A stretch of 64,000 bases of DNA from positions 279-64,278 of the forward strand of contig CAZEEW010000006.1 of NCBI GenBank assembly GCA_964511375.1, in the 5' to 3' direction. The stretch comes from an uncultured Gammaproteobacteria bacterium (lineage in GTDB: Bacteria; Patescibacteriota; Patescibacteriia; Magasanikbacterales; GWA2-37-8). The notes under the pieces are model-generated. The model did no database searches. It was not told the origin of the DNA and saw only the letters and a program-made list of their open reading frames with translations. The position numbers and the translations under genes are program-made. Shown here one piece after another: positions 32,826-60,407 of the stretch (positions are counted from its first letter, which is position 1; every line of letters starts with the position of its first letter).

Positions 32826-34589
32826 TTATGGACTAAATACGTCTACCGAGTTACTGCCAATTACTGCCCCACTCGAATCCTTTGCTATAAATGTCAGGCG
32901 GTATGGCCCTCGATCTTTCCAAGTCCAACCACTAACATCCACCCAGGCTTCTTTGTGTGGATAATCCTCATTACTGTTATACATCTGGTTTAATCGATCG
33001 CCATCGACTTGCCAATACATTTCATAATTGGAAATGCTGACACTCGGAATATCTGCTTTAAACGGTTGCGGACCTGATAAAGTTACATTCTTAGTTGGCC
33101 ACCAAATGTTGATTGACCCACTGGTTGGGGGCGGTGTCGTAGTTCCGCCTCCCCCACCTGAAGAAGCATTTTGAACGTTAATACTTTTAACGTTGTCCAT
33201 CCAAATATAGTTTACGGACCAATTATTGTTAAAGACGCCAGCCACAATCCGGTAGTCTCCGGGACTAGTGGGTGTCCAGGTGGGATTAAAAGTTTTACTT
33301 CCACCAACTGTAAACGACTGATTTTCGTAGAACTGCTGAAAAACCTTACCACCACTATTGTTATACACTTCGACGTCAACGATCGCCCCATTAACTGCCC
33401 CGGTATGATTGTTTTTAACTACGACATTCAATCCCACACCTTGGTCAACCGTCGCTGTAGTTGGTGCATTGCTAGTTATGTTAAAATTTGTCGCACTGGG
33501 ATTCCCTGTACCAGGGTCGCCCCCACTTCCACCCCCTCCTTGACCACTGCCACCAAACCATGTCCGCATTGTACCTTCGGCCGGTTTATTTTGTGGAGTA
33601 AAATCTGTATTACCATTACCCCCAGCATTAGGATCACTGATCCAGTCCCACAGATGCACTCCCTGCATGTATGATTGCCCGTCCCAATACGAAAACAGGG
33701 CTTCGTAAAGAGCAACTTGGTTATCTGGATCATAACCTCCGCCACCCCAGTAATTAAATGGCTCCCACTGCGCCCAGTCCATGCTGCGGTAACCAATTTC
33801 AGTAAAGAGTACTGGTTTGTTCCAGCGATTGTGAAGATTCTTTATGTCATTATTATTAATCTTGTCCCATTCGTTTTTGTACGCCTCAACGGACTTGTTT
33901 CCCGTTGGTAAGGGAAAATACGCGGAGATGCCAATGTAATCTAGACTTGGCCAAAATGTGATACGGTTTTTTTCATCAGTCCAACCCGGACCACCCCAGT
34001 TGGCACTATAAGTTAATTTGCCACCATATATTTGCCTGACCGAACTAATGAGGTTATTCCAGTTTTCGGTATTAGTCGAGTTTGCGTCATTCGCCGCCAT
34101 GTTAATTAGCTCAGCACCAATAGTAAATTCTTCCACTCCGTTATTTTTAGCAATTGCGGCGTAATGACGCACCTTGTCCCCGTACGACTTAAACCAAGCG
34201 TTACGATCCCCAGGGTTAATATTTGCACGCCATTGGCCATCATTGCTTTCCAAATGAAGCTTTAAATTTACTTGCATGCCTTGGTTGTGTATATATTGAA
34301 TCCCTGACGCCAATGAGGCATCAGTTGGTGTATTCCAATGATTGTAAACATTAGTAGCCCAAACATTGTCCTGAGCTAGAGGGATCACCATGGTGATGTA
34401 ATTGGCATTGGTGGCTTTAATTTTATCCACAACCTGCCTAAACCCATCACTATCATAGTCAGTGTTCCAACGTGGAACAACACTAACACCTTTTTGCCAG
34501 CTACCTATTGCAGCATTGGCTTGTTGGTGGACTGGTATGACCAAAACAGTTAGTGCCGCAGCTAGAATGAAGGATATAGCTTTTTTCAT
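32826..34589 (-). CDS. secreted modular glycoside hydrolase (GH5/GH26-like TIM-barrel) + Gly-rich linkers + two accessory beta-sandwich domains
   Basis: Signal peptide; catalytic-region pattern ...FTEIGYRS...; Gly/Ser/Thr/Pro linkers; C-terminal domain homologous to one in the adjacent GH6 protein. Confidence 0.6.
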   Translation of the reverse strand: MKKAISFILAAALTVLVIPVHQQANAAIGSWQKGVSVVPRWNTDYDSDGFRQVVDKIKATNANYITMVIPLAQDNVWATNVYNHWNTPTDASLASGIQYIHNQGMQVNLKLHLESNDGQWRANINPGDRNAWFKSYGDKVRHYAAIAKNNGVEEFTIGAELINMAANDANSTNTENWNNLISSVRQIYGGKLTYSANWGGPGWTDEKNRITFWPSLDYIGISAYFPLPTGNKSVEAYKNEWDKINNNDIKNLHNRWNKPVLFTEIGYRSMDWAQWEPFNYWGGGGYDPDNQVALYEALFSYWDGQSYMQGVHLWDWISDPNAGGNGNTDFTPQNKPAEGTMRTWFGGSGQGGGGSGGDPGTGNPSATNFNITSNAPTTATVDQGVGLNVVVKNNHTGAVNGAIVDVEVYNNSGGKVFQQFYENQSFTVGGSKTFNPTWTPTSPGDYRIVAGVFNNNWSVNYIWMDNVKSINVQNASSGGGGGTTTPPPTSGSINIWWPTKNVTLSGPQPFKADIPSVSISNYEMYWQVDGDRLNQMYNSNEDYPHKEAWVDVSGWTWKDRGPYRLTFIAKDSSGAVIGSNSVDVFSP

Positions 34590-34649
34590 ATAAATTAAGT
34601 TAGATATTTATTTATCTTGACACTCATGAAAATTCAATACAAGCACAAA

Positions 34650-34676
34650 GAACCCTACGCAGTAAAGTGTAGGGTT
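34650..34676 (-). terminator. hairpin AACCCTAC-loop-GTAGGGTT downstream of the GH6 gene
   Basis: 8-bp perfect stem; weak U-tract. Confidence 0.3.
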
Positions 34677-34790
34677 CGAGGTAAGCTATCTGCTATTTTA
34701 TTTTTACGTACACTGGAGCTAGTTTTTTCCGTGACTGGAATAGACCAACAAACCAATTAAATAGATATGACATATTAATATAGATTAGAA

Positions 34791-36479
34791 TTACCATGTT
34801 GCACGCTGGGCGAGCCCAAGAGCATAATCCGCCCACCATTCCCCAGCGTTCGGACCACCATTACAGTTACCATCGGATTCCCCAGGGGTCTTAATCCAGA
34901 GATACCCGTCGATAGCGCTGTTACCAGTACTTAAGCTTGGTTTATTACCCAAAGCGCGACCCGCTGGATTACACCACTCACCATTACCACCCAAACCATT
35001 TCGGGCAGTGTCAATCACGAAGTGTTTGTTGTTGATCAACCGAGACACTTCCTGACCGTAGGACGTATTTTGGCTGGTGGTATAAAAATTTGAAACATTC
35101 AAGGCAAAACCTTCAGCCCGGGCAATACCAGCTTGTGATAAGCGGTTAGCCATTTCACCAGAATTAATCCAACCTGGGTGACCAGCATCAATATATACCT
35201 TTACGCCTGGCTTTGCTTCTAGAGTTGAAACAGCGAAGTTTAAAAGCTCATAACGACGATCCTTATCTCCCTGAGATAAACAATCGGTAAGAGCAGTGGC
35301 ATCTGGTTCAAGAACAACGATCGCACTACGGCTACCAATGCCATTAGCCACACTGGTAATCCAAGATTTATACGCATCGCTACTGGTTGAACCACCAGCA
35401 GAGTAACCGCCACAGTCACGCTGTGGAATATTGTAAGCTACTAAGACTGGGGTTGCATTAGCGTTCGCAGCGGCATCCACGTAGTTTTTTACATCTTGGT
35501 AAATATTACTGTTCCAACCACCAAACCATCGGGCACTAGGTTGGTTACCGATCTTTAACATAAGCGCTGCATCAGCTGGACGACTGCTTTGCCAGTTTCT
35601 GGCTTGAGCTAAAGCTGGCGAATTGGGATTGACATACAGTCCTGATGTCGAAGGCTGAGCGGTGTCCGTAGTTTGCGTTTGAGCCGGCTGACTTGCAGTA
35701 GCAGCTGGCGCAGATTGTGTAGTGCTGCCAATGGTAACAGAAATACTTTTCTGTGATACTACTATCCCATTAACCTTAGCAACAAAATTAATCTTGTATG
35801 GGCCACTGCCTCGCCAATTCCACGAACCAACATTTACAGAAGTTTCTTTATGTGGTGAGTCATTGAAGTTATTTGGCATAACGTTTAATTGACCACCATC
35901 AACTTGCCAATACATTTCATAATTGGTAACACTTCTTCCATCTAGAACAGCTTTAAATGGTTGTGTACCACTTAAGACACTGTTATTGCTTGGCCACCAA
36001 ATACTAATATTGGCTGCAGTGGCTGTCGTAGTTTGGTTTGTACTTACTGTAGGAGCAGCTTGAACAGTTACTTCCTTCAAGTTTTCAAACCAGGCTAAAT
36101 TTGGATTCCAATATTCACCGAATATACCTAATTTAATTTTAAATTTACCAGTGTTAGTTGGTCGCCAGACAAAATCAAAGCTTTTTGTCTCGCCATTGGA
36201 AATATATTGGTTTTCTAAATATTTTTGCCAAACCCGTGTATTGTTTTCGTTATATATTTCCAGATCCACAACACCACGAGTTAAGGCGGAACCACTAACT
36301 GTCACACGAATAGTTGTGTCAGTATTAACAGTTAATGACGAAGGAATAGTTGTAGCGCTTGCAGTAAAGCCAGCGGCTTTTACCCGAGTAGCACTAGTGA
36401 ATAACGTTGTGAAAAGAACAGATATGACTAACAGTGCGTTAAAAACGCGTTTGGAGGACGATAGAGTTTTTGATTTCAT
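34791..36479 (-). CDS. secreted modular glycoside hydrolase family 6 (cellulase) with two N-terminal accessory domains
   Basis: GH6 signatures YNIPQRDCGG, VVLEPDA and WIKTPGESDG; signal peptide; N-terminal domains homologous to those of the 32826..34589 protein. Confidence 0.7.
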   Translation of the reverse strand: MKSKTLSSSKRVFNALLVISVLFTTLFTSATRVKAAGFTASATTIPSSLTVNTDTTIRVTVSGSALTRGVVDLEIYNENNTRVWQKYLENQYISNGETKSFDFVWRPTNTGKFKIKLGIFGEYWNPNLAWFENLKEVTVQAAPTVSTNQTTTATAANISIWWPSNNSVLSGTQPFKAVLDGRSVTNYEMYWQVDGGQLNVMPNNFNDSPHKETSVNVGSWNWRGSGPYKINFVAKVNGIVVSQKSISVTIGSTTQSAPAATASQPAQTQTTDTAQPSTSGLYVNPNSPALAQARNWQSSRPADAALMLKIGNQPSARWFGGWNSNIYQDVKNYVDAAANANATPVLVAYNIPQRDCGGYSAGGSTSSDAYKSWITSVANGIGSRSAIVVLEPDATALTDCLSQGDKDRRYELLNFAVSTLEAKPGVKVYIDAGHPGWINSGEMANRLSQAGIARAEGFALNVSNFYTTSQNTSYGQEVSRLINNKHFVIDTARNGLGGNGEWCNPAGRALGNKPSLSTGNSAIDGYLWIKTPGESDGNCNGGPNAGEWWADYALGLAQRATW

Positions 36480-36772
36480 GAAGAAATAATTTCTTTGCTC
36501 ATCTGAGAGGTCCGCGGATCACGCGCACGTCGAGCGAATTTCCCCGAGGGAGGGACGATTGTTTAATTTGCCCTGCCTTGTCTTTATCTCTCGTAAAGAC
36601 CAAATCGACGTTTTATAGTCCCCCGAGCTAATAGTTTTCTCCGGGTGGATATGCAAAACGTGTGCTCATTGTAGCAGAGAGGATTTTACCTACAAGCAAG
36701 GTGGAGAGGAAACAAGCTGTTTTTTACAGTTTATTTAGCCGAGAAATTATCCACAACCCTGGGATGAGATCA

Positions 36773-36826
36773 TTGACTTTAACCTTATAGTGTGGTACAA
36801 AGGACAGTTCAAAAACTGTTCTTTTT
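36773..36826 (+). promoter_or_regulatory. weak promoter-like TTGACT-17-TACAAA followed by small hairpin ACAGTT-CAAAA-AACTGT + T-run (possible attenuator/terminator) upstream of cassette 2
   Basis: Read directly; -10 is poor, function uncertain. Confidence 0.25.
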
Positions 36827-36841
36827 AAATTAATTTTGGCT

Positions 36842-36896
36842 AAGCTGACTTGCATAGTGGACATCTAACACAGGTGTTTAGTGTACCAGTCAGCTT
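36842..36896 (+). promoter_or_regulatory. 5'UTR inverted repeat AAGCTGACT ... AGTCAGCTT (9-bp stems, about 37-nt loop) upstream of cassette 2 ORF
   Basis: Read directly. Confidence 0.35.
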
Positions 36897-36954
36897 TGGA
36901 AAAACCACAGAACCAACCTGTGATGATTCAGGTTGAAGAAGCAGGGAGGCAACA

Positions 36955-37299
36955 ATGGGAGTGTTTCTCGTCCATCTGATCGTCCATCTCCTGGTCAGTG
37001 CTCTGATGGCGGGGGGAACCTACTTCTTCAGGGCACGACGGGCCCTGAAGAACGGGAAACACCTCAACGGGACGTTGACCGGAATGGTTAACGTCCTTAG
37101 CTGGACGCTGGCCCCAGTCTTCGCCAGCATAATTGTTCCGTATCCTGAAGAGCGGTCACTGAGACTGTGGTGGATCTCGGTGGCAGCCGCTTACCTGCTT
37201 AGTGCCGTTGCCATCTGGGTGAGTATTTTCCTCGCCCGGAGTTTGACTGGCTACGAACCACCGTATCCCACCGTGGAGGATGAATTGCCCACCGACTGA
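36955..37299 (+). CDS. small GC-rich membrane protein (114 aa, 3-4 TM), foreign-looking
   Basis: ORF track; RBS GGAGG 6-7 nt upstream; high GC3 codon usage unlike host; hydrophobic helices. Confidence 0.5.
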   Translation: MGVFLVHLIVHLLVSALMAGGTYFFRARRALKNGKHLNGTLTGMVNVLSWTLAPVFASIIVPYPEERSLRLWWISVAAAYLLSAVAIWVSIFLARSLTGYEPPYPTVEDELPTD

Positions 37300-37333
37300 G
37301 CAGACCGCACGTCTCATCCGAAGGGATCGCGCG

Positions 37334-37397
37334 CTCGTACATGGCTCGGTCTCTAGAGTAACTAAGTAATTAGTTCTTCTAGAGAGTTATGTACGAG
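37334..37397. repeat. 64-bp nested imperfect palindrome (CTCGTACAT...CTCTAGAG-T-AACTAA-GTAA-TTAGTT-CTTCTAGAGAG...ATGTACGAG) 3' of cassette 2 ORF
   Basis: Read directly; outer 9-bp arms perfect, inner arms perfect/near-perfect. Confidence 0.5.
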
Positions 37398-37404
37398 ATA
37401 AAAT

Positions 37405-37436
37405 AAAAATACCTACCTAAGTGGGGGGTATTTTTT
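37405..37436. terminator. intrinsic terminator AAAAATACC-13nt loop-GGTATTTTT + T-run, shared by cassette 2 (+) and tdk (-)
   Basis: 9-bp stem with flanking A/T runs on both strands between convergent genes. Confidence 0.45.
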
Positions 37437-37453
37437 AATAAATTTAAATACTG

Positions 37454-38047
37454 TTATTGTGTTGAAGTTGTCTCTACTGGTTGTGATCCGTAATGATCTT
37501 TTTTTACAAAACAATTCCTACACACTGCCATGTAAGTGTAAGTGCCATCATCTGGTAAAACTGAAGGGGCGTCAGTTAGAGGTGTGCCATTTGAAAGTAT
37601 TTGAGTGTGAGTGGCAGTGGGATTTTTGCACTGTTCACAGACGGCCCATTTGTATCTTACCTCCTTTGGTCCTAGTTCATATATCCTTTTTACCATCTCA
37701 AACATTAGGCCGCGCGAATCTAGATCTAACCCAGAAATAATTACCTTAACTCCCCTTTTTAACAGGTTATCTACTGCCGAGACCTCTTCGGGCGGAAACA
37801 TGTGCACCTCGTCAATTCCGATCACTTTGTAACTATCTAAAGGTATTTCCTTAAGACTTAAGATTTTTGTGGCTTCCAAACCACTACCATTCCGTGATAA
37901 CACCTTATCTTCACGCACATGTCGAGCACATTGGTATAACGCATGAGGGATATTCGTGTACTTCAAAGGTGCAAAGTGGCTAATTAGATCATATGACTTA
38001 CCACTTTTCATTGGACCTAAGATAAGAACAAGATCAATATTTTGCAT
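37454..38047 (-). CDS. tdk: thymidine kinase
   Basis: P-loop LGPMKSGKS and C-terminal Zn-ribbon CxxC...CxxC. Confidence 0.85.
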   Translation of the reverse strand: MQNIDLVLILGPMKSGKSYDLISHFAPLKYTNIPHALYQCARHVREDKVLSRNGSGLEATKILSLKEIPLDSYKVIGIDEVHMFPPEEVSAVDNLLKRGVKVIISGLDLDSRGLMFEMVKRIYELGPKEVRYKWAVCEQCKNPTATHTQILSNGTPLTDAPSVLPDDGTYTYMAVCRNCFVKKDHYGSQPVETTSTQ

Positions 38048-60110: not shown

Positions 60111-60407
60111 TGGCTCCGGGGGCGGGATTCGAACCCGCGACCAATTGATTACACTTACCTACTTGTTTCCAAATAGTGTGGACTATATCATCACCCCGAC
60201 GATGTCGGGGGCAAGGCGCTTCGACCAATTACCTGGTCTACTCCTTTCGGATAGTCTCTGAACCTTCCTGCTTTCGCAGGCTTGGCTGCTGATTACCATT
60301 GCCTTTCGACTTTAGGCTTCCAGCAATTCACCTTGTTTTCTGCCTTAATTACTTAAGGTAGCTGCGTTAAACCACAGTCAACTGCGCTACCGCTGCGCTA
60401 CCCCGGA
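60111..60407 (-). tRNA. tRNA-Asn(GUU) gene interrupted by a group I intron in the anticodon loop (exons 60374..60407 and 60111..60151)
   Basis: Perfect 7-bp acceptor stem (UCCGGGG/CCCCGGA) pairs across 297 nt; D-arm GCGC-AGCGGUA-GCGC; T-arm GCGGG-UUCGAAU-CCCGC; spliced loop CUGUUAA gives anticodon GUU with U1-A72 and G73 as in E. coli tRNA-Asn; CCA encoded. Confidence 0.65.
60152..60373 (-). ncRNA. group I self-splicing intron (222 nt) inserted between nucleotides 35 and 36 of tRNA-Asn
   Basis: Core elements AAUGGUAAUCAGCAGCCAAGCC and GGUUCAGAGACUA match conserved P3/P4/P6 and P7/J8-7 sequences of group I introns (Tetrahymena GUUCACAGACUA; Azoarcus AGAGACUA, GCCAAGC); 5' exon ends in U with GCAG internal guide pairing; intron ends in G. 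Confidence 0.65.

What the first reader, a model, noticed from the sequence alone, without database searches (positions are those of the whole stretch)
32826..36479. Tandem pair of modular secreted glycoside hydrolases (GH5/26-like and GH6 cellulase) sharing two non-catalytic domains in shuffled order
Both proteins have signal peptides and Gly/Ser/Thr/Pro linkers. Both contain two homologous beta-sandwich-like modules: a VD-E-YN...VWQ-Y-ENQ module and an I-IWWP...NYEMYWQVDG...PHKE module. The modules are arranged differently around different catalytic domains. One catalytic domain is a TIM-barrel ...FTEIGYRS...; the other has clear GH6 motifs IPQRDCGG, VVLEPDA and WIKTPGESDG. GH6 cellulases are characteristic of actinobacteria and fungi, so an extracellular beta-glucan/cellulose-degrading pair is unexpected in a compact AT-rich genome. 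This suggests domain shuffling or HGT and a polysaccharide-scavenging lifestyle. The shared modules may be novel CBM-like domains.
Basis: partly seen in the sequence, partly recalled or inferred. Interest (0 to 1): 0.6.

Follow-up and report, generated by a model that had tools for sequence, protein, structure and literature searches.

The report
Secreted cellulase–mannanase pair sharing unnamed modules
Two neighbouring genes in a tiny-genome (Patescibacteria/CPR) bacterium encode secreted enzymes of known families (a GH6 cellulase and a GH113 mannanase-type enzyme) that both carry the same pair of add-on domains, one of which is a sharply conserved domain family with no name that is attached mostly to cell-wall-polysaccharide-cutting enzymes in this group of bacteria.

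Summary
ORFs 34791-36479(-) and 32826-34589(-) encode signal-peptide proteins with low-complexity linkers. One catalytic domain is GH6 (Pfam 223 bits; all four conserved Asp of T. fusca Cel6A present). The other is GH113, not GH5/26 (Pfam 172 bits; both catalytic Glu present).

They share a two-domain cassette (41% identity over 209 aa, E=1e-45). Its internal order, A then B, is the same in both proteins. Only its position differs: SP-A-B-GH6 versus SP-GH113-A-B.

Module A is a divergent CARDB/BsuPI-like Ig fold. Module B is a confident Ig-like sandwich (pLDDT 96) with no Pfam, NCBIfam or PDB relative. It forms a family of about 500 clusters, found mainly on β-1,4-glycanases (GH113, GH6, GH8, GH5, GH12, GH44, GH26). 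It is also found on some peptidoglycan hydrolases and on a membrane regulator encoded next to a cellulase gene.

The pair is syntenic in related Patescibacteria MAGs, and B-GH6 is a common design there. Composition and tree give no sign of recent transfer.

Most likely the two genes encode extracellular endo-β-glucanase and mannanase-type enzymes targeted by a CBM-like cassette. Binding is inferred, not shown. Interest is modest: known enzymes plus a candidate new accessory-module family.

The parts
34791..36479 (-). Gene for the 562-aa secreted modular GH6 protein (SP - module A - linker - module B - linker - GH6)
   Evidence: ORF; Pfam GH6; the exact protein also lies on Logan contig SRR6488411_82.
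36375..36479 (-). Signal peptide or signal anchor of the GH6 protein (aa 1-35, ...ATRVKA|AGF)
   Evidence: Read by eye from the translation (basic n-region, hydrophobic h-region, A-x-A-like site). No predictor was available.
36060..36356 (-). Module A of the GH6 protein (aa 42-140), a CARDB/BsuPI-like Ig fold
   Evidence: Local HMM. Weak Pfam hits to BatD, Big_7 and CARDB. AF2 strands at residues 2-99 of the cassette, pLDDT >90.
35724..36014 (-). Module B of the GH6 protein (aa 156-252), member of an unnamed Ig-like family (IWWP...QPFKA...YxMYWQVDG...PHKE...GWxW)
   Evidence: AF2 pLDDT 96.4. No Pfam hit at E<=10. 509 cluster representatives in the exhaustive search.
34794..35651 (-). GH6 catalytic domain (aa 277-562), short endoglucanase-type
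   Evidence: PF01341 at 223 bits. PDB 1uoz/1up0 (M. tuberculosis CelA1) at E=4e-76. D79, D117, D156 and D265 of T. fusca Cel6A conserved.
34641..34677 (-). Terminator-like hairpin (GAACCCUAC...GUAGGGUUC followed by UUUGUGCUU) between the two genes
   Evidence: Sequence. The 9-bp stem appears in the MFE fold of the intergenic region. The simple scan did not report it, possibly because its loop is about 10 nt and the scan allows 3-8. Function inferred.
32826..34589 (-). Gene for the 587-aa secreted modular GH113 protein (SP - GH113 - linker - module A - linker - module B)
   Evidence: ORF; Pfam GH113.
34512..34589 (-). Signal peptide of the GH113 protein (aa 1-26, ...QQANA|AIG)
   Evidence: Read by eye from the translation.
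33540..34511 (-). GH113 catalytic (beta/alpha)8 domain (aa 27-350)
   Evidence: PF22612 at 172 bits. PDB GH113 mannanases 7dv7, 4cd6, 3civ and 5ylh at E~1e-24. The acid/base Glu (GAEL) aligns with the Glu that is Ala in the variant chain 7dvz, and the nucleophile Glu (FTEIGY) is conserved.
33171..33476 (-). Module A of the GH113 protein (aa 372-473)
   Evidence: Local HMM. Pfam BsuPI at 29 bits, partial, plus weak Wzt_C and BatD. The profile hits CARDB-domain structures 2kl6 and 3idu at E~2e-4.
32829..33119 (-). Module B of the GH113 protein (aa 491-587), at the extreme C-terminus
   Evidence: 52% identical to module B of the GH6 protein.
36480..36680 (-). Conserved leader upstream of the GH6 gene (putative 5' UTR, with a -10-like TACAAT at about 36668-36673)
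   Evidence: 84% identity to L002, against 54-66% for other intergenic regions and 66-74% for CDSs. Present in L002, L003, L014, L015 and L016 only. No Rfam hit. MFE z-score -0.47. Role unknown.

Best explanation
The locus encodes two separately transcribed, Sec-exported modular glycoside hydrolases on the core chromosome of a Patescibacteria (CPR) bacterium.

- **Enzyme 1** is SP-A-B-GH6. It is an inverting endo-β-1,4-glucanase of the short, open-cleft type exemplified by M. tuberculosis CelA1 and T. fusca Cel6A.
- **Enzyme 2** is SP-GH113-A-B. It is a retaining clan GH-A enzyme, most likely an extracellular endo-β-1,4-mannanase or glucomannanase.
- **The shared cassette** is tethered to both by flexible linkers. 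It consists of a CARDB-like Ig module (A) and a strongly conserved, unnamed Ig-like module (B).

The most likely role of the cassette, and above all of module B, is targeting: it holds the catalytic domain on an insoluble β-1,4-linked glycan surface, as a CBM would. This would let an ultra-small cell depolymerise cellulose or glucomannan-type material outside the cell.

**Shown here:** family membership, the catalytic residues, the shared modules and their folds, the distribution of the modules and their partner enzymes, and synteny.

**Inferred:** secretion, substrates, endo mode of action, and any binding by A or B.
For: **Catalytic domains**
- Pfam scores lie far above the cut-offs.
- The closest solved relatives are a characterised endoglucanase (1uoz, E=4e-76; activity on CMC and β-glucan in PMC10816823) and characterised GH113 mannanases.
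- All catalytic Asp and Glu residues are conserved.
- The GH6 domain is about 285 aa, like the endo-acting Cel6A/CelA1 chains of 286-294 aa. The cellobiohydrolase chains listed are 360-420 aa.
- In GH113, the signal-peptide-rich clades 2-4 were found to be endo-mannanases (PMC9032380).

**Cassette**
- 41% identity between the two proteins, E=1e-45.
- Two confident β-sandwiches with a floppy linker.
- Modules A and B are unrelated to each other (hhalign probability 0.4%).

**Targeting role of module B**
- 61% mean column identity across proteins with unrelated catalytic domains. Conserved positions include aromatic and polar residues W6, W7, Q18, K21, Y32, Y35, W36, D39, N44, H55, K56, E57, W65 and W67. 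This is more than a passive spacer would need.
- Of 89 family members scanned, Pfam hits were GH113 27, GH6 24, GH8 4, GH5 3, GH12 3, GH44 1 and GH26 1, against M23 6, CHAP 2 and S8 1. The cargo is strongly biased to β-1,4-glycan hydrolases.
- Module B is always terminal and occurs in 1-5 tandem copies.
- A wHTH-TM-B one-component regulator exposes B outside the membrane. In three contigs it is encoded about 150 bp from a divergently transcribed GH5+PA14+CBM11 cellulase gene, as expected for a domain that senses a glycan.
- A lipobox-bearing B-GH6 (P0014) shows that B is present even when the protein has another anchor.

**Conservation**
- The pair is kept in L002, L003+L009, L014, L015 and L016, and in divergent orientation in L005.
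Against: - No binding has been demonstrated, and no known CBM resembles either module by sequence or by fold.
- Module B also occurs on M23 and CHAP peptidoglycan hydrolases, an S8 protease and a caspase-like protein. It also follows a bona fide cellulose-binding CBM2 in GH5-CBM2-B. A strictly cellulose-specific role is therefore unlikely.
- The GH113 domain is only distantly related to characterised enzymes (E~1e-24). One whole GH113 clade showed no activity on any substrate tested.
- No uptake or downstream catabolic genes for cello- or manno-oligosaccharides were seen next to the pair.
- Signal peptides were judged by eye only.
Confidence: 0.55

Rival explanations
1. Modules A and B are cell-surface retention or assembly modules. 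They would bind a component of the producer's own envelope, or a partner protein in the manner of a dockerin, rather than the substrate. All sorts of secreted lytic enzymes would then stay attached to the tiny cell.
For: - The same cassette is found on enzymes with different substrates: glycanases, M23 and CHAP peptidoglycan hydrolases, an S8 protease and an FG-GAP protein.
- It is always terminal.
- It co-occurs with a true CBM2.
- Every module-B-bearing protein or locus that has an organism name is from a Patescibacteria-lineage MAG, apart from one MAG labelled Gammaproteobacteria that I suspect is mis-binned.
- The profile weakly resembles the immunoglobulin constant domain. The idea that the face involved is a protein-protein interface comes from my own knowledge of antibody structure and is inference.
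Against: - About 85% of the catalytic domains Pfam identified among the 89 scanned members are β-1,4-glycanases (63 of 74 hits). That is a narrow range for a general anchor.
- B sits on proteins that are already membrane- or lipid-anchored: the wHTH-TM-B regulator and the lipobox B-GH6 P0014.
- No candidate receptor or scaffold was seen.
Confidence: 0.2
2. Modules A and B are inert Ig-like spacer or stability domains, like many FN3 and Big domains in glycoside hydrolases, with no specific ligand.
For: - Both are generic E-set/Ig-like sandwiches. Their best structural matches are antibodies, filamin and transglutaminase β-barrels.
- Module A is borderline CARDB/BsuPI.
- Such domains are common as linkers in modular enzymes (general knowledge).
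Against: - Module B is unusually conserved. It has 12 invariant and 16 near-invariant columns out of about 97, including many polar and aromatic residues, across unrelated enzymes.
- It is used as the only extracellular domain of a transcriptional regulator.
- It is repeated up to five times at protein termini.
Confidence: 0.15
3. One reading: the GH6/TIM-barrel pair is a recent horizontal acquisition from Actinobacteria or fungi into an otherwise non-cellulolytic compact genome.
For: - The closest solved GH6 structure is mycobacterial CelA1.
- GH6 is classically described from actinobacteria and fungi (general knowledge).
- Published glycoside-hydrolase inventories for Patescibacteria list GH3, GH5, GH13, GH18 and others, but not GH6 or GH113.
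Against: - CelA1 is only 45.8% identical and T. fusca Cel6A 40.7%. Both fall outside a large radiation of GH6 proteins 57-85% identical to the window's, many of them named Patescibacteria.
- The window's protein is nested among B-GH6 proteins.
- The pair is syntenic over more than 12 kb with a Patescibacteria MAG at about 72% DNA identity.
- GC is 0.44 and GC3 is 0.33-0.41, within the range of neighbouring housekeeping genes.
- No mobile-element genes flank the pair.
Confidence: 0.07

Closest known systems
M. tuberculosis CelA1 / Rv0062 (GH6 endoglucanase; PDB 1UOZ, 1UP0)
   Same: - Best solved relative: E=4e-76 and 45.8% identity over the catalytic domain.
- Same short catalytic domain of about 285 aa.
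- All catalytic and conserved Asp motifs present.
- Experimentally an endo-β-1,4-glucanase on CMC and β-glucan that hydrolyses biofilm cellulose (PMC10816823).
   Different: - No A or B modules aligned to it; only the catalytic domain matched.
- Different phylum.
- It lies outside the Patescibacteria GH6 radiation in the tree.
Thermobifida fusca Cel6A (E2) and other actinobacterial GH6-CBM2 cellulases
   Same: - Same design logic: catalytic GH6, flexible linker, then a small β-sandwich accessory module.
- D79, D117, D156 and D265 are conserved.
   Different: - 40.7% identity.
- From my own knowledge, its accessory module is a CBM2 with demonstrated cellulose binding. Here there is an N-terminal A-B cassette of unknown ligand that gives no CBM_2 Pfam hit.
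Characterised GH113 β-mannanases (AaManA 3CIV/4CD6, AxMan113A 5YLH, Bacillus sp. N16-5 Man113A 7DV7)
   Same: - Same Pfam family (PF22612).
- Both catalytic Glu residues conserved.
   Different: - Only distantly related (E~1e-24).
- Those enzymes are single-domain clade-1 proteins, a clade that mostly lacks signal peptides.
- CAZy curators found GH113 almost never modular and could not relate the C-terminal extensions to any known module (PMC9032380).
- Here the enzyme has a signal peptide and a C-terminal A-B cassette.
CARDB (PF07705) and BsuPI (PF12690) Ig-like domains
   Same: - Module A gives borderline Pfam hits to both.
- Its profile hits structures 2kl6 and 3idu at E~2e-4. These are deposited as uncharacterised proteins; I recall them as CARDB domains.
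- Some family members pass the CARDB cut-off.
   Different: - The hits cover only half of the models or fall below the gathering scores.
- Module A has its own conserved signature (VDxExY...Q...ENQ...W.P..G.Y...G.F...W....W).
Extracytoplasmic CBM-type sensor domains of cellulase regulators (e.g. RsgI anti-sigma factors of Clostridium thermocellum; from my own knowledge)
   Same: The wHTH-TM-module B protein sits next to a GH5 cellulase gene. This has the same logic: a carbohydrate-recognising module outside the membrane, a DNA-binding output inside, and an adjacent glycanase gene.
   Different: - A different regulator type: a ToxR/CadC-like one-component wHTH rather than an anti-sigma factor.
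- Neither ligand binding nor regulation has been tested.

Membership tests
Glycoside hydrolase family 6 (GH6) | Sequence membership (Pfam PF01341 above the gathering score) | tested here: met
   223.3 bits against a cut-off of 27, aa 297-542. PDB GH6 chains down to E=4e-76.
Glycoside hydrolase family 6 (GH6) | Catalytic acid Asp (T. fusca Cel6A D117, 'EPD') and the conserved Asp residues D79 ('RDCG'), D156 ('DAGH') and D265 ('GE.DG') | tested here: met
   All four align to Asp in the alignment to 1tml. Residue numbers were counted from the chain numbering in that output. The functional roles of the residues are from my own knowledge.
Glycoside hydrolase family 6 (GH6) | Inverting hydrolysis of β-1,4-glucan; endo versus exo mode | not testable with these tools
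   Only indirect evidence: the domain is about 285 aa, like the endoglucanase chains (286-294 aa) and unlike the cellobiohydrolase chains (360-420 aa) listed.
Glycoside hydrolase family 113 (GH113) | Sequence membership (Pfam PF22612 above the gathering score) | tested here: met
   172.1 bits against a cut-off of 27, aa 44-331, covering model positions 11-285 of 289.
Glycoside hydrolase family 113 (GH113) | Two catalytic Glu residues (acid/base and nucleophile) of the retaining clan GH-A mechanism | tested here: met
   In the alignment to 7dv7, query GAEL aligns with GCEM. That Glu is Ala in the variant chain 7dvz. Query FTEIGY aligns with FMEAGC.
Glycoside hydrolase family 113 (GH113) | β-1,4-mannan specificity | not testable with these tools
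   Four of the five GH113 clades are mannan-specific, and clade 5 had no detectable activity (PMC9032380). The clade of this protein was not determined.
   Neither family appears at E<=1 for the 587-aa protein; GH113 is the only catalytic-domain hit.
Known carbohydrate-binding modules (families covered by Pfam or by solved structures) | Sequence or fold similarity of module A or module B to a described CBM | tested here: not met
   - Module B: no Pfam hit at E<=10, no NCBIfam hit, PDB profile hits only to Ig constant domains at E>=2.6e-4, Foldseek only to generic Ig folds.
- Cassette: Foldseek hits to transglutaminase β-barrels and antibodies.
- Module A: only CARDB/BsuPI/Wzt_C-like borderline hits.
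Known carbohydrate-binding modules (functional definition) | Demonstrated binding to a carbohydrate | not testable with these tools
   Only contextual evidence: the bias in partner enzymes and the regulator encoded next to a cellulase gene.
CARDB (PF07705) / BsuPI (PF12690), for module A | Pfam match above the gathering score over most of the model | tested here: inconclusive
   - Window module A (GH113 protein): BsuPI 29.3 bits (cut-off 22.9), but only model positions 48-96 of 101.
- Window module A (GH6 protein): CARDB 17.4 bits, below the cut-off of 22.7.
- Some family members reach CARDB at 30-35 bits.
Sec-dependent secreted protein | Cleavable N-terminal signal peptide | tested here: inconclusive
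   n-, h- and c-regions and A-x-A-type sites are visible in both translations. No signal-peptide predictor was available, and the GH6 N-terminus could be an uncleaved anchor.

The most novel reading that the evidence does not exclude
Module B, usually together with module A, is a new ligand-binding module family that marks the secreted lytic arsenal of Patescibacteria. That arsenal comprises β-1,4-glycanases, M23 and CHAP peptidoglycan hydrolases and proteases. The module would direct these enzymes to the cell wall or biofilm matrix of host or prey organisms rather than to plant litter. The GH6/GH113 pair would then be part of an episymbiont attack or attachment toolkit, and module B would be a sequence handle for finding such effectors in CPR genomes.
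Probability: 0.2. Interest if true: 0.65.

Novelty: new variant of a known kind. Interest (0 to 1): 0.4.

Why it matters
The catalytic domains are ordinary members of GH6 and GH113. What is new is the accessory part.

- Module B is a sharply conserved, structurally confident domain of about 97 aa with no Pfam or NCBIfam entry and no solved relative.
- Its family has about 500 clusters at 50% identity.
- It is attached almost only to enzymes that cut β-1,4-linked wall polymers.
- GH113 was described by CAZy curators as essentially non-modular, with unexplained C-terminal extensions (PMC9032380). This work gives those extensions a defined two-domain anatomy and a wider family context.

If binding is shown, A and B would be candidate new CBM families. 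They would also help explain how ultra-small bacteria with minimal metabolism get at polymeric carbon, or at the surfaces of their hosts.

The finding also corrects the impression that GH6 is foreign to this phylum.

Tried and rejected
- **Module A search.** A word-indexed search with the module A profile gave only 2 hits. Module A copies were instead taken from the module B family set.
- **Taxonomy.** Cluster look-up of ten family members gave no organism names.
- **P0003.** It looked like a stand-alone membrane-anchored B-B protein, which would have argued against self-anchoring. Its contig shows it is the N-terminal piece of a frameshifted B-B-GH6, so I dropped that argument.
- **L011.** I first took it (the locus with the wHTH-TM-B regulator) to be non-CPR because of its 58% GC. 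CPR loci in my set reach 59-64% GC, so I withdrew that; its taxonomy is unknown.
- **Leader upstream of GH6.**
  - No Rfam family at E<=1.
  - No ORF.
  - No homolog beyond the closest clade.
  - Pattern scan of metagenomes gave 0 hits.
  - Only one compensatory pair among four near-identical sequences.
  - MFE z-score -0.47.
  - A structured-RNA reading is therefore unsupported, although the conservation is real.
- **Ig constant domain resemblance.** The marginal sequence match of module B to immunoglobulin kappa constant domains was treated as a fold-level resemblance, not homology.
- **A versus B.** Profile-profile comparison showed no relationship between the two modules.

Full report
**1. 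The observation**

Both begin with a basic, then hydrophobic, then A-x-A-type N-terminus. Both contain G/S/T/P/Q-rich linkers.

Pfam assigns aa 297-542 of the first protein to GH6 (PF01341, 223 bits, E=8.5e-66). It assigns aa 44-331 of the second to GH113 (PF22612, 172 bits, E=2.2e-50). No GH5 or GH26 model matched, and NCBIfam has no model for either protein.

BLASTP of one protein against the other gives a single collinear match. GH113 protein aa 376-584 aligns with GH6 protein aa 46-248 at 41% identity, E=1e-45. The shared region is therefore real, and it has the same internal order in both proteins.

**2. The catalytic domains**

*GH6.* The best solved relative is M. tuberculosis CelA1/Rv0062 (1uoz/1up0, E=4e-76), followed by a GH6 chain deposited as 6fao and by T. 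fusca Cel6A.
- The alignment to 1tml shows that D79 (RDCG), D117 (EPD, the catalytic acid), D156 (DAGH) and D265 (GE.DG) are all conserved.
- The domain is about 285 aa. That matches the endoglucanase chains and is shorter than the 360-420-aa cellobiohydrolase chains in the same list.
- Rv0062 has been shown to be an endo-β-1,4-glucanase acting on CMC, β-glucan and biofilm cellulose (PMC10816823).

*GH113.* The solved GH113 β-mannanases match at E~1e-24.
- The acid/base Glu (query GAEL) aligns with the Glu that is replaced by Ala in the variant chain 7dvz.
- The nucleophile Glu (query FTEIGY) is also conserved.
- A family-wide study found mannan specificity in four of the five GH113 clades, with endo-mannanases in the signal-peptide-rich clades 2-4 and no detectable activity in clade 5 (PMC9032380).
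- The mannanase assignment is therefore likely but not certain.

**3. The organism and the HGT question**

A scan of one genome per species found nine relatives. All are in Patescibacteria-lineage MAGs (Patescibacteria group, Parcubacteria, Adlerbacteria, Minisyncoccia, Peribacteria) except one MAG labelled Gammaproteobacteria, whose two contigs carry the same pair.

L002 (Patescibacteria SMAG_U8153) aligns with the window over about 12 kb at roughly 67-72% DNA identity, in the same gene order. The window itself is core chromosome, with ATP synthase α and β, MetRS, AddA-type helicase, BipA and DinB.

The GH6 catalytic domain has more than 6,000 database matches at E<=1e-30.
- The top 120 are 57-85% identical and include NCBI names such as Patescibacteria group, Paceibacterota, Saccharimonadales and Kaiserbacteria.
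- 62 of the 119 newly retrieved proteins carry module B.
- In a distance tree, CelA1 (45.8% identity), 6fao (42%) and Cel6A (40.7%) are outgroups. The window's protein nests among B-GH6 proteins.

GC (0.44) and GC3 (0.33 and 0.41) of the two genes lie within the range of neighbouring housekeeping genes. Nothing points to a recent transfer. An ancient one cannot be judged without taxon-labelled trees.

Published glycoside-hydrolase inventories for CPR bacteria do not mention GH6 or GH113. The presence of these families is therefore under-reported rather than new.

**4. The shared modules**

*Module B* (about 97 aa) has a striking signature: IWWP..G..vSG.QPFKA......Y.MYWQVDGG.LN.M......PHKE..V..sGW.W.g.GPY...F.AKD.
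- Across 22 copies there are 12 invariant and 16 near-invariant columns.
- It has no Pfam hit even at E<=10.
- A profile search of PDB sequences returns only marginal matches to immunoglobulin constant domains.
- AlphaFold gives an eight-strand sandwich at pLDDT 96.4.
- Foldseek against PDB finds only generic Ig-like folds: TM at most 0.67, about 12% identity, and no CBM among the 50 matches listed.

*Module A* (about 100 aa; VD.E.Y...Q...ENQ...W.P..G.Y...G.F...W....W) gives borderline hits to BsuPI, CARDB, BatD and Wzt_C. Its profile hits structures 2kl6 and 3idu at E~2e-4.

The whole cassette folds as two sandwiches separated by a disordered linker (pLDDT 93.9). It resembles tandem Ig or β-barrel pairs structurally. 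A and B are not detectably related to each other.

**5. The module B family**

An exhaustive profile search of 1.84 billion representatives finds 509 proteins at E<=1e-3 and 357 at E<=1e-10.

Pfam scans of 89 members give these counts:

| Partner domain | Members |
|---|---|
| GH113 | 27 |
| GH6 | 24 |
| M23 | 6 |
| GH8 | 4 |
| GH5 | 3 |
| GH12 | 3 |
| PA14 | 3 |
| FN3 | 3 |
| CHAP | 2 |
| wHTH (Trans_reg_C) | 2 |
| GH44, GH26, CBM2, S8, caspase | 1 each |

Parsed architectures in 161 proteins:

| Architecture | Proteins |
|---|---|
| GH113-A-B | 33 |
| GH113-B | 8 |
| GH113-A-A-B | 6 |
| B-B-GH6 | 17 |
| B-GH6 | 11 |
| A-B-GH6 | 2 |
| GH6-A-B | 1 |

Individual cases include GH5-Bx5, GH12-Bx3, A-B-GH44, GH8-B, B-B-GH8, M23-...-A-B, CHAP-...-A-B, S8-B-B and GH5-CBM2-B. 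The window's GH113-A-B is therefore the standard form. Its A-B-GH6 is a rare variant of the usual B-GH6.

Module B sequences have a nearest neighbour with the same catalytic partner in 81% of cases, against 57% expected by chance. Architectures are thus mostly inherited, with occasional exchange.

The GH6-GH113 adjacency is kept in the window's close relatives (L002, L003+L009, L014-L016). It also occurs in divergent orientation in a Minisyncoccia MAG, where GH6 carries B-B.

**6. What the cassette does**

Three readings were weighed.

*(a) Substrate or target binding (CBM-like).* Supporting points:
- The strong bias of the cargo towards β-1,4-glycan hydrolases.
- The conservation of many polar and aromatic residues.
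- The terminal, often repeated position.
- A wHTH-TM-B regulator whose only extracellular domain is module B. In three contigs it is encoded about 150 bp from a divergently transcribed GH5+PA14+CBM11 cellulase gene.

*(b) Self-anchoring or assembly.* Supporting points are the occurrence on peptidoglycan hydrolases and proteases, and downstream of a true CBM2. This is weakened by B's presence on proteins that are already membrane- or lipid-anchored.

*(c) Inert spacer.* This fits the generic fold but not the conservation.

I favour (a), perhaps with a broad preference for β-1,4-linked polymers that would also cover peptidoglycan. It remains inference. The CAZy curators' remark that C-terminal extensions on some GH113 proteins could not be related to any known CBM or module is consistent with these modules being undescribed.

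**7. Transcription**

A 9-bp GC-rich hairpin followed by UUUGUGCUU lies between the genes. The GH113 gene has its own AT-rich upstream region. The two genes are therefore probably separate transcription units.

**8. Things noticed along the way**

*Conserved leader.* The roughly 200 nt upstream of the GH6 start codon are the most conserved stretch of the syntenic region. They are 84% identical to L002, against 54-66% for other spacers and 66-74% for CDSs.
- A TACAAT box sits at its 5' edge.
- There is no Rfam match.
- There is no excess folding energy (z = -0.47).
- Sequence diversity is too low for a covariation test.

*Intron-containing tRNA.* Rfam finds a group I intron at 60159-60383. Its flanks are the two halves of a tRNA gene. 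Removing 60154-60375 yields a 75-nt tRNA-Thr(UGU). This explains why ARAGORN reported no tRNA in the window.

**9. Verdict**

This is a real, conserved pair of secreted modular glycoside hydrolases of known families in a Patescibacteria genome.

The part worth following up is the A-B cassette, and module B especially. It is an unnamed, well-defined accessory-domain family with a strong association with β-1,4-glycanases.

Novelty: new variant of a known kind. Interest: 0.4.

Noticed in passing
window 60111-60407 (-), intron about 60154-60375: A group I intron (Rfam RF00028, 82.8 bits) interrupts the anticodon loop of a tRNA gene that ARAGORN missed in default mode. Splicing it out in silico gives a 75-nt tRNA-Thr(UGU). 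The exact splice site is inferred, and a 1-nt shift would give Thr(GGU).
   Followed up: yes
window 36480-36680 (-), upstream of the GH6 start codon: This roughly 200-nt leader is the most conserved stretch of the syntenic region. It is 84% identical to L002, against 54-66% for other intergenic regions. It is present only in the closest clade. It has no Rfam hit, no ORF and an MFE z-score of -0.47. Only one compensatory pair was seen. It may be a regulatory element of unknown type.
   Followed up: partly
window 36755-37491, including ORF 36955-37299 (+): About 700 nt between the thymidine kinase gene and the GH6 leader have no counterpart in the otherwise syntenic L002, where the gap is about 110 nt. 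The stretch contains a 114-aa hydrophobic ORF on the opposite strand. This looks like a small lineage-specific insertion.
   Followed up: no
L011 7697-10921 (also L012 and L013): A wHTH (Trans_reg_C)-TM-module B one-component regulator is transcribed divergently, about 150 bp away, from a GH5+PA14+CBM11 cellulase gene in three independent contigs. CBASS genes lie nearby. The contig has 58% GC, and its taxonomy is unknown.
   Followed up: partly
L023 8001-9976 and 12664-15538: P0003 is the N-terminal fragment of a frameshifted (pseudogenised or mis-assembled) B-B-GH6 gene. The same contig carries a GH8 gene, a GT2 with a Cellulose_synt-like Pfam hit, a PMT_2 gene and an ECF sigma factor. This hints that some of these glucanases could relate to the organism's own β-glucan or envelope glycans.
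   Followed up: no
L003 and L009 (MAG SRP062349_co1_291): Two contigs of a MAG labelled 'uncultured Gammaproteobacteria bacterium' carry the same A-B-GH6 / GH113-A-B pair at 74-87% identity, as Patescibacteria MAGs do. The contigs are probably mis-binned, or the MAG label is wrong.
   Followed up: no
module B, window 35724-36014 and 32829-33119: The module B profile gives marginal sequence matches (E from 2.6e-4 to about 0.05) to immunoglobulin kappa constant domains over strands A to D (IWWP/IFPP, MYWQVDG/VKWKIDG). I treated this as a fold-level resemblance.
   Followed up: partly
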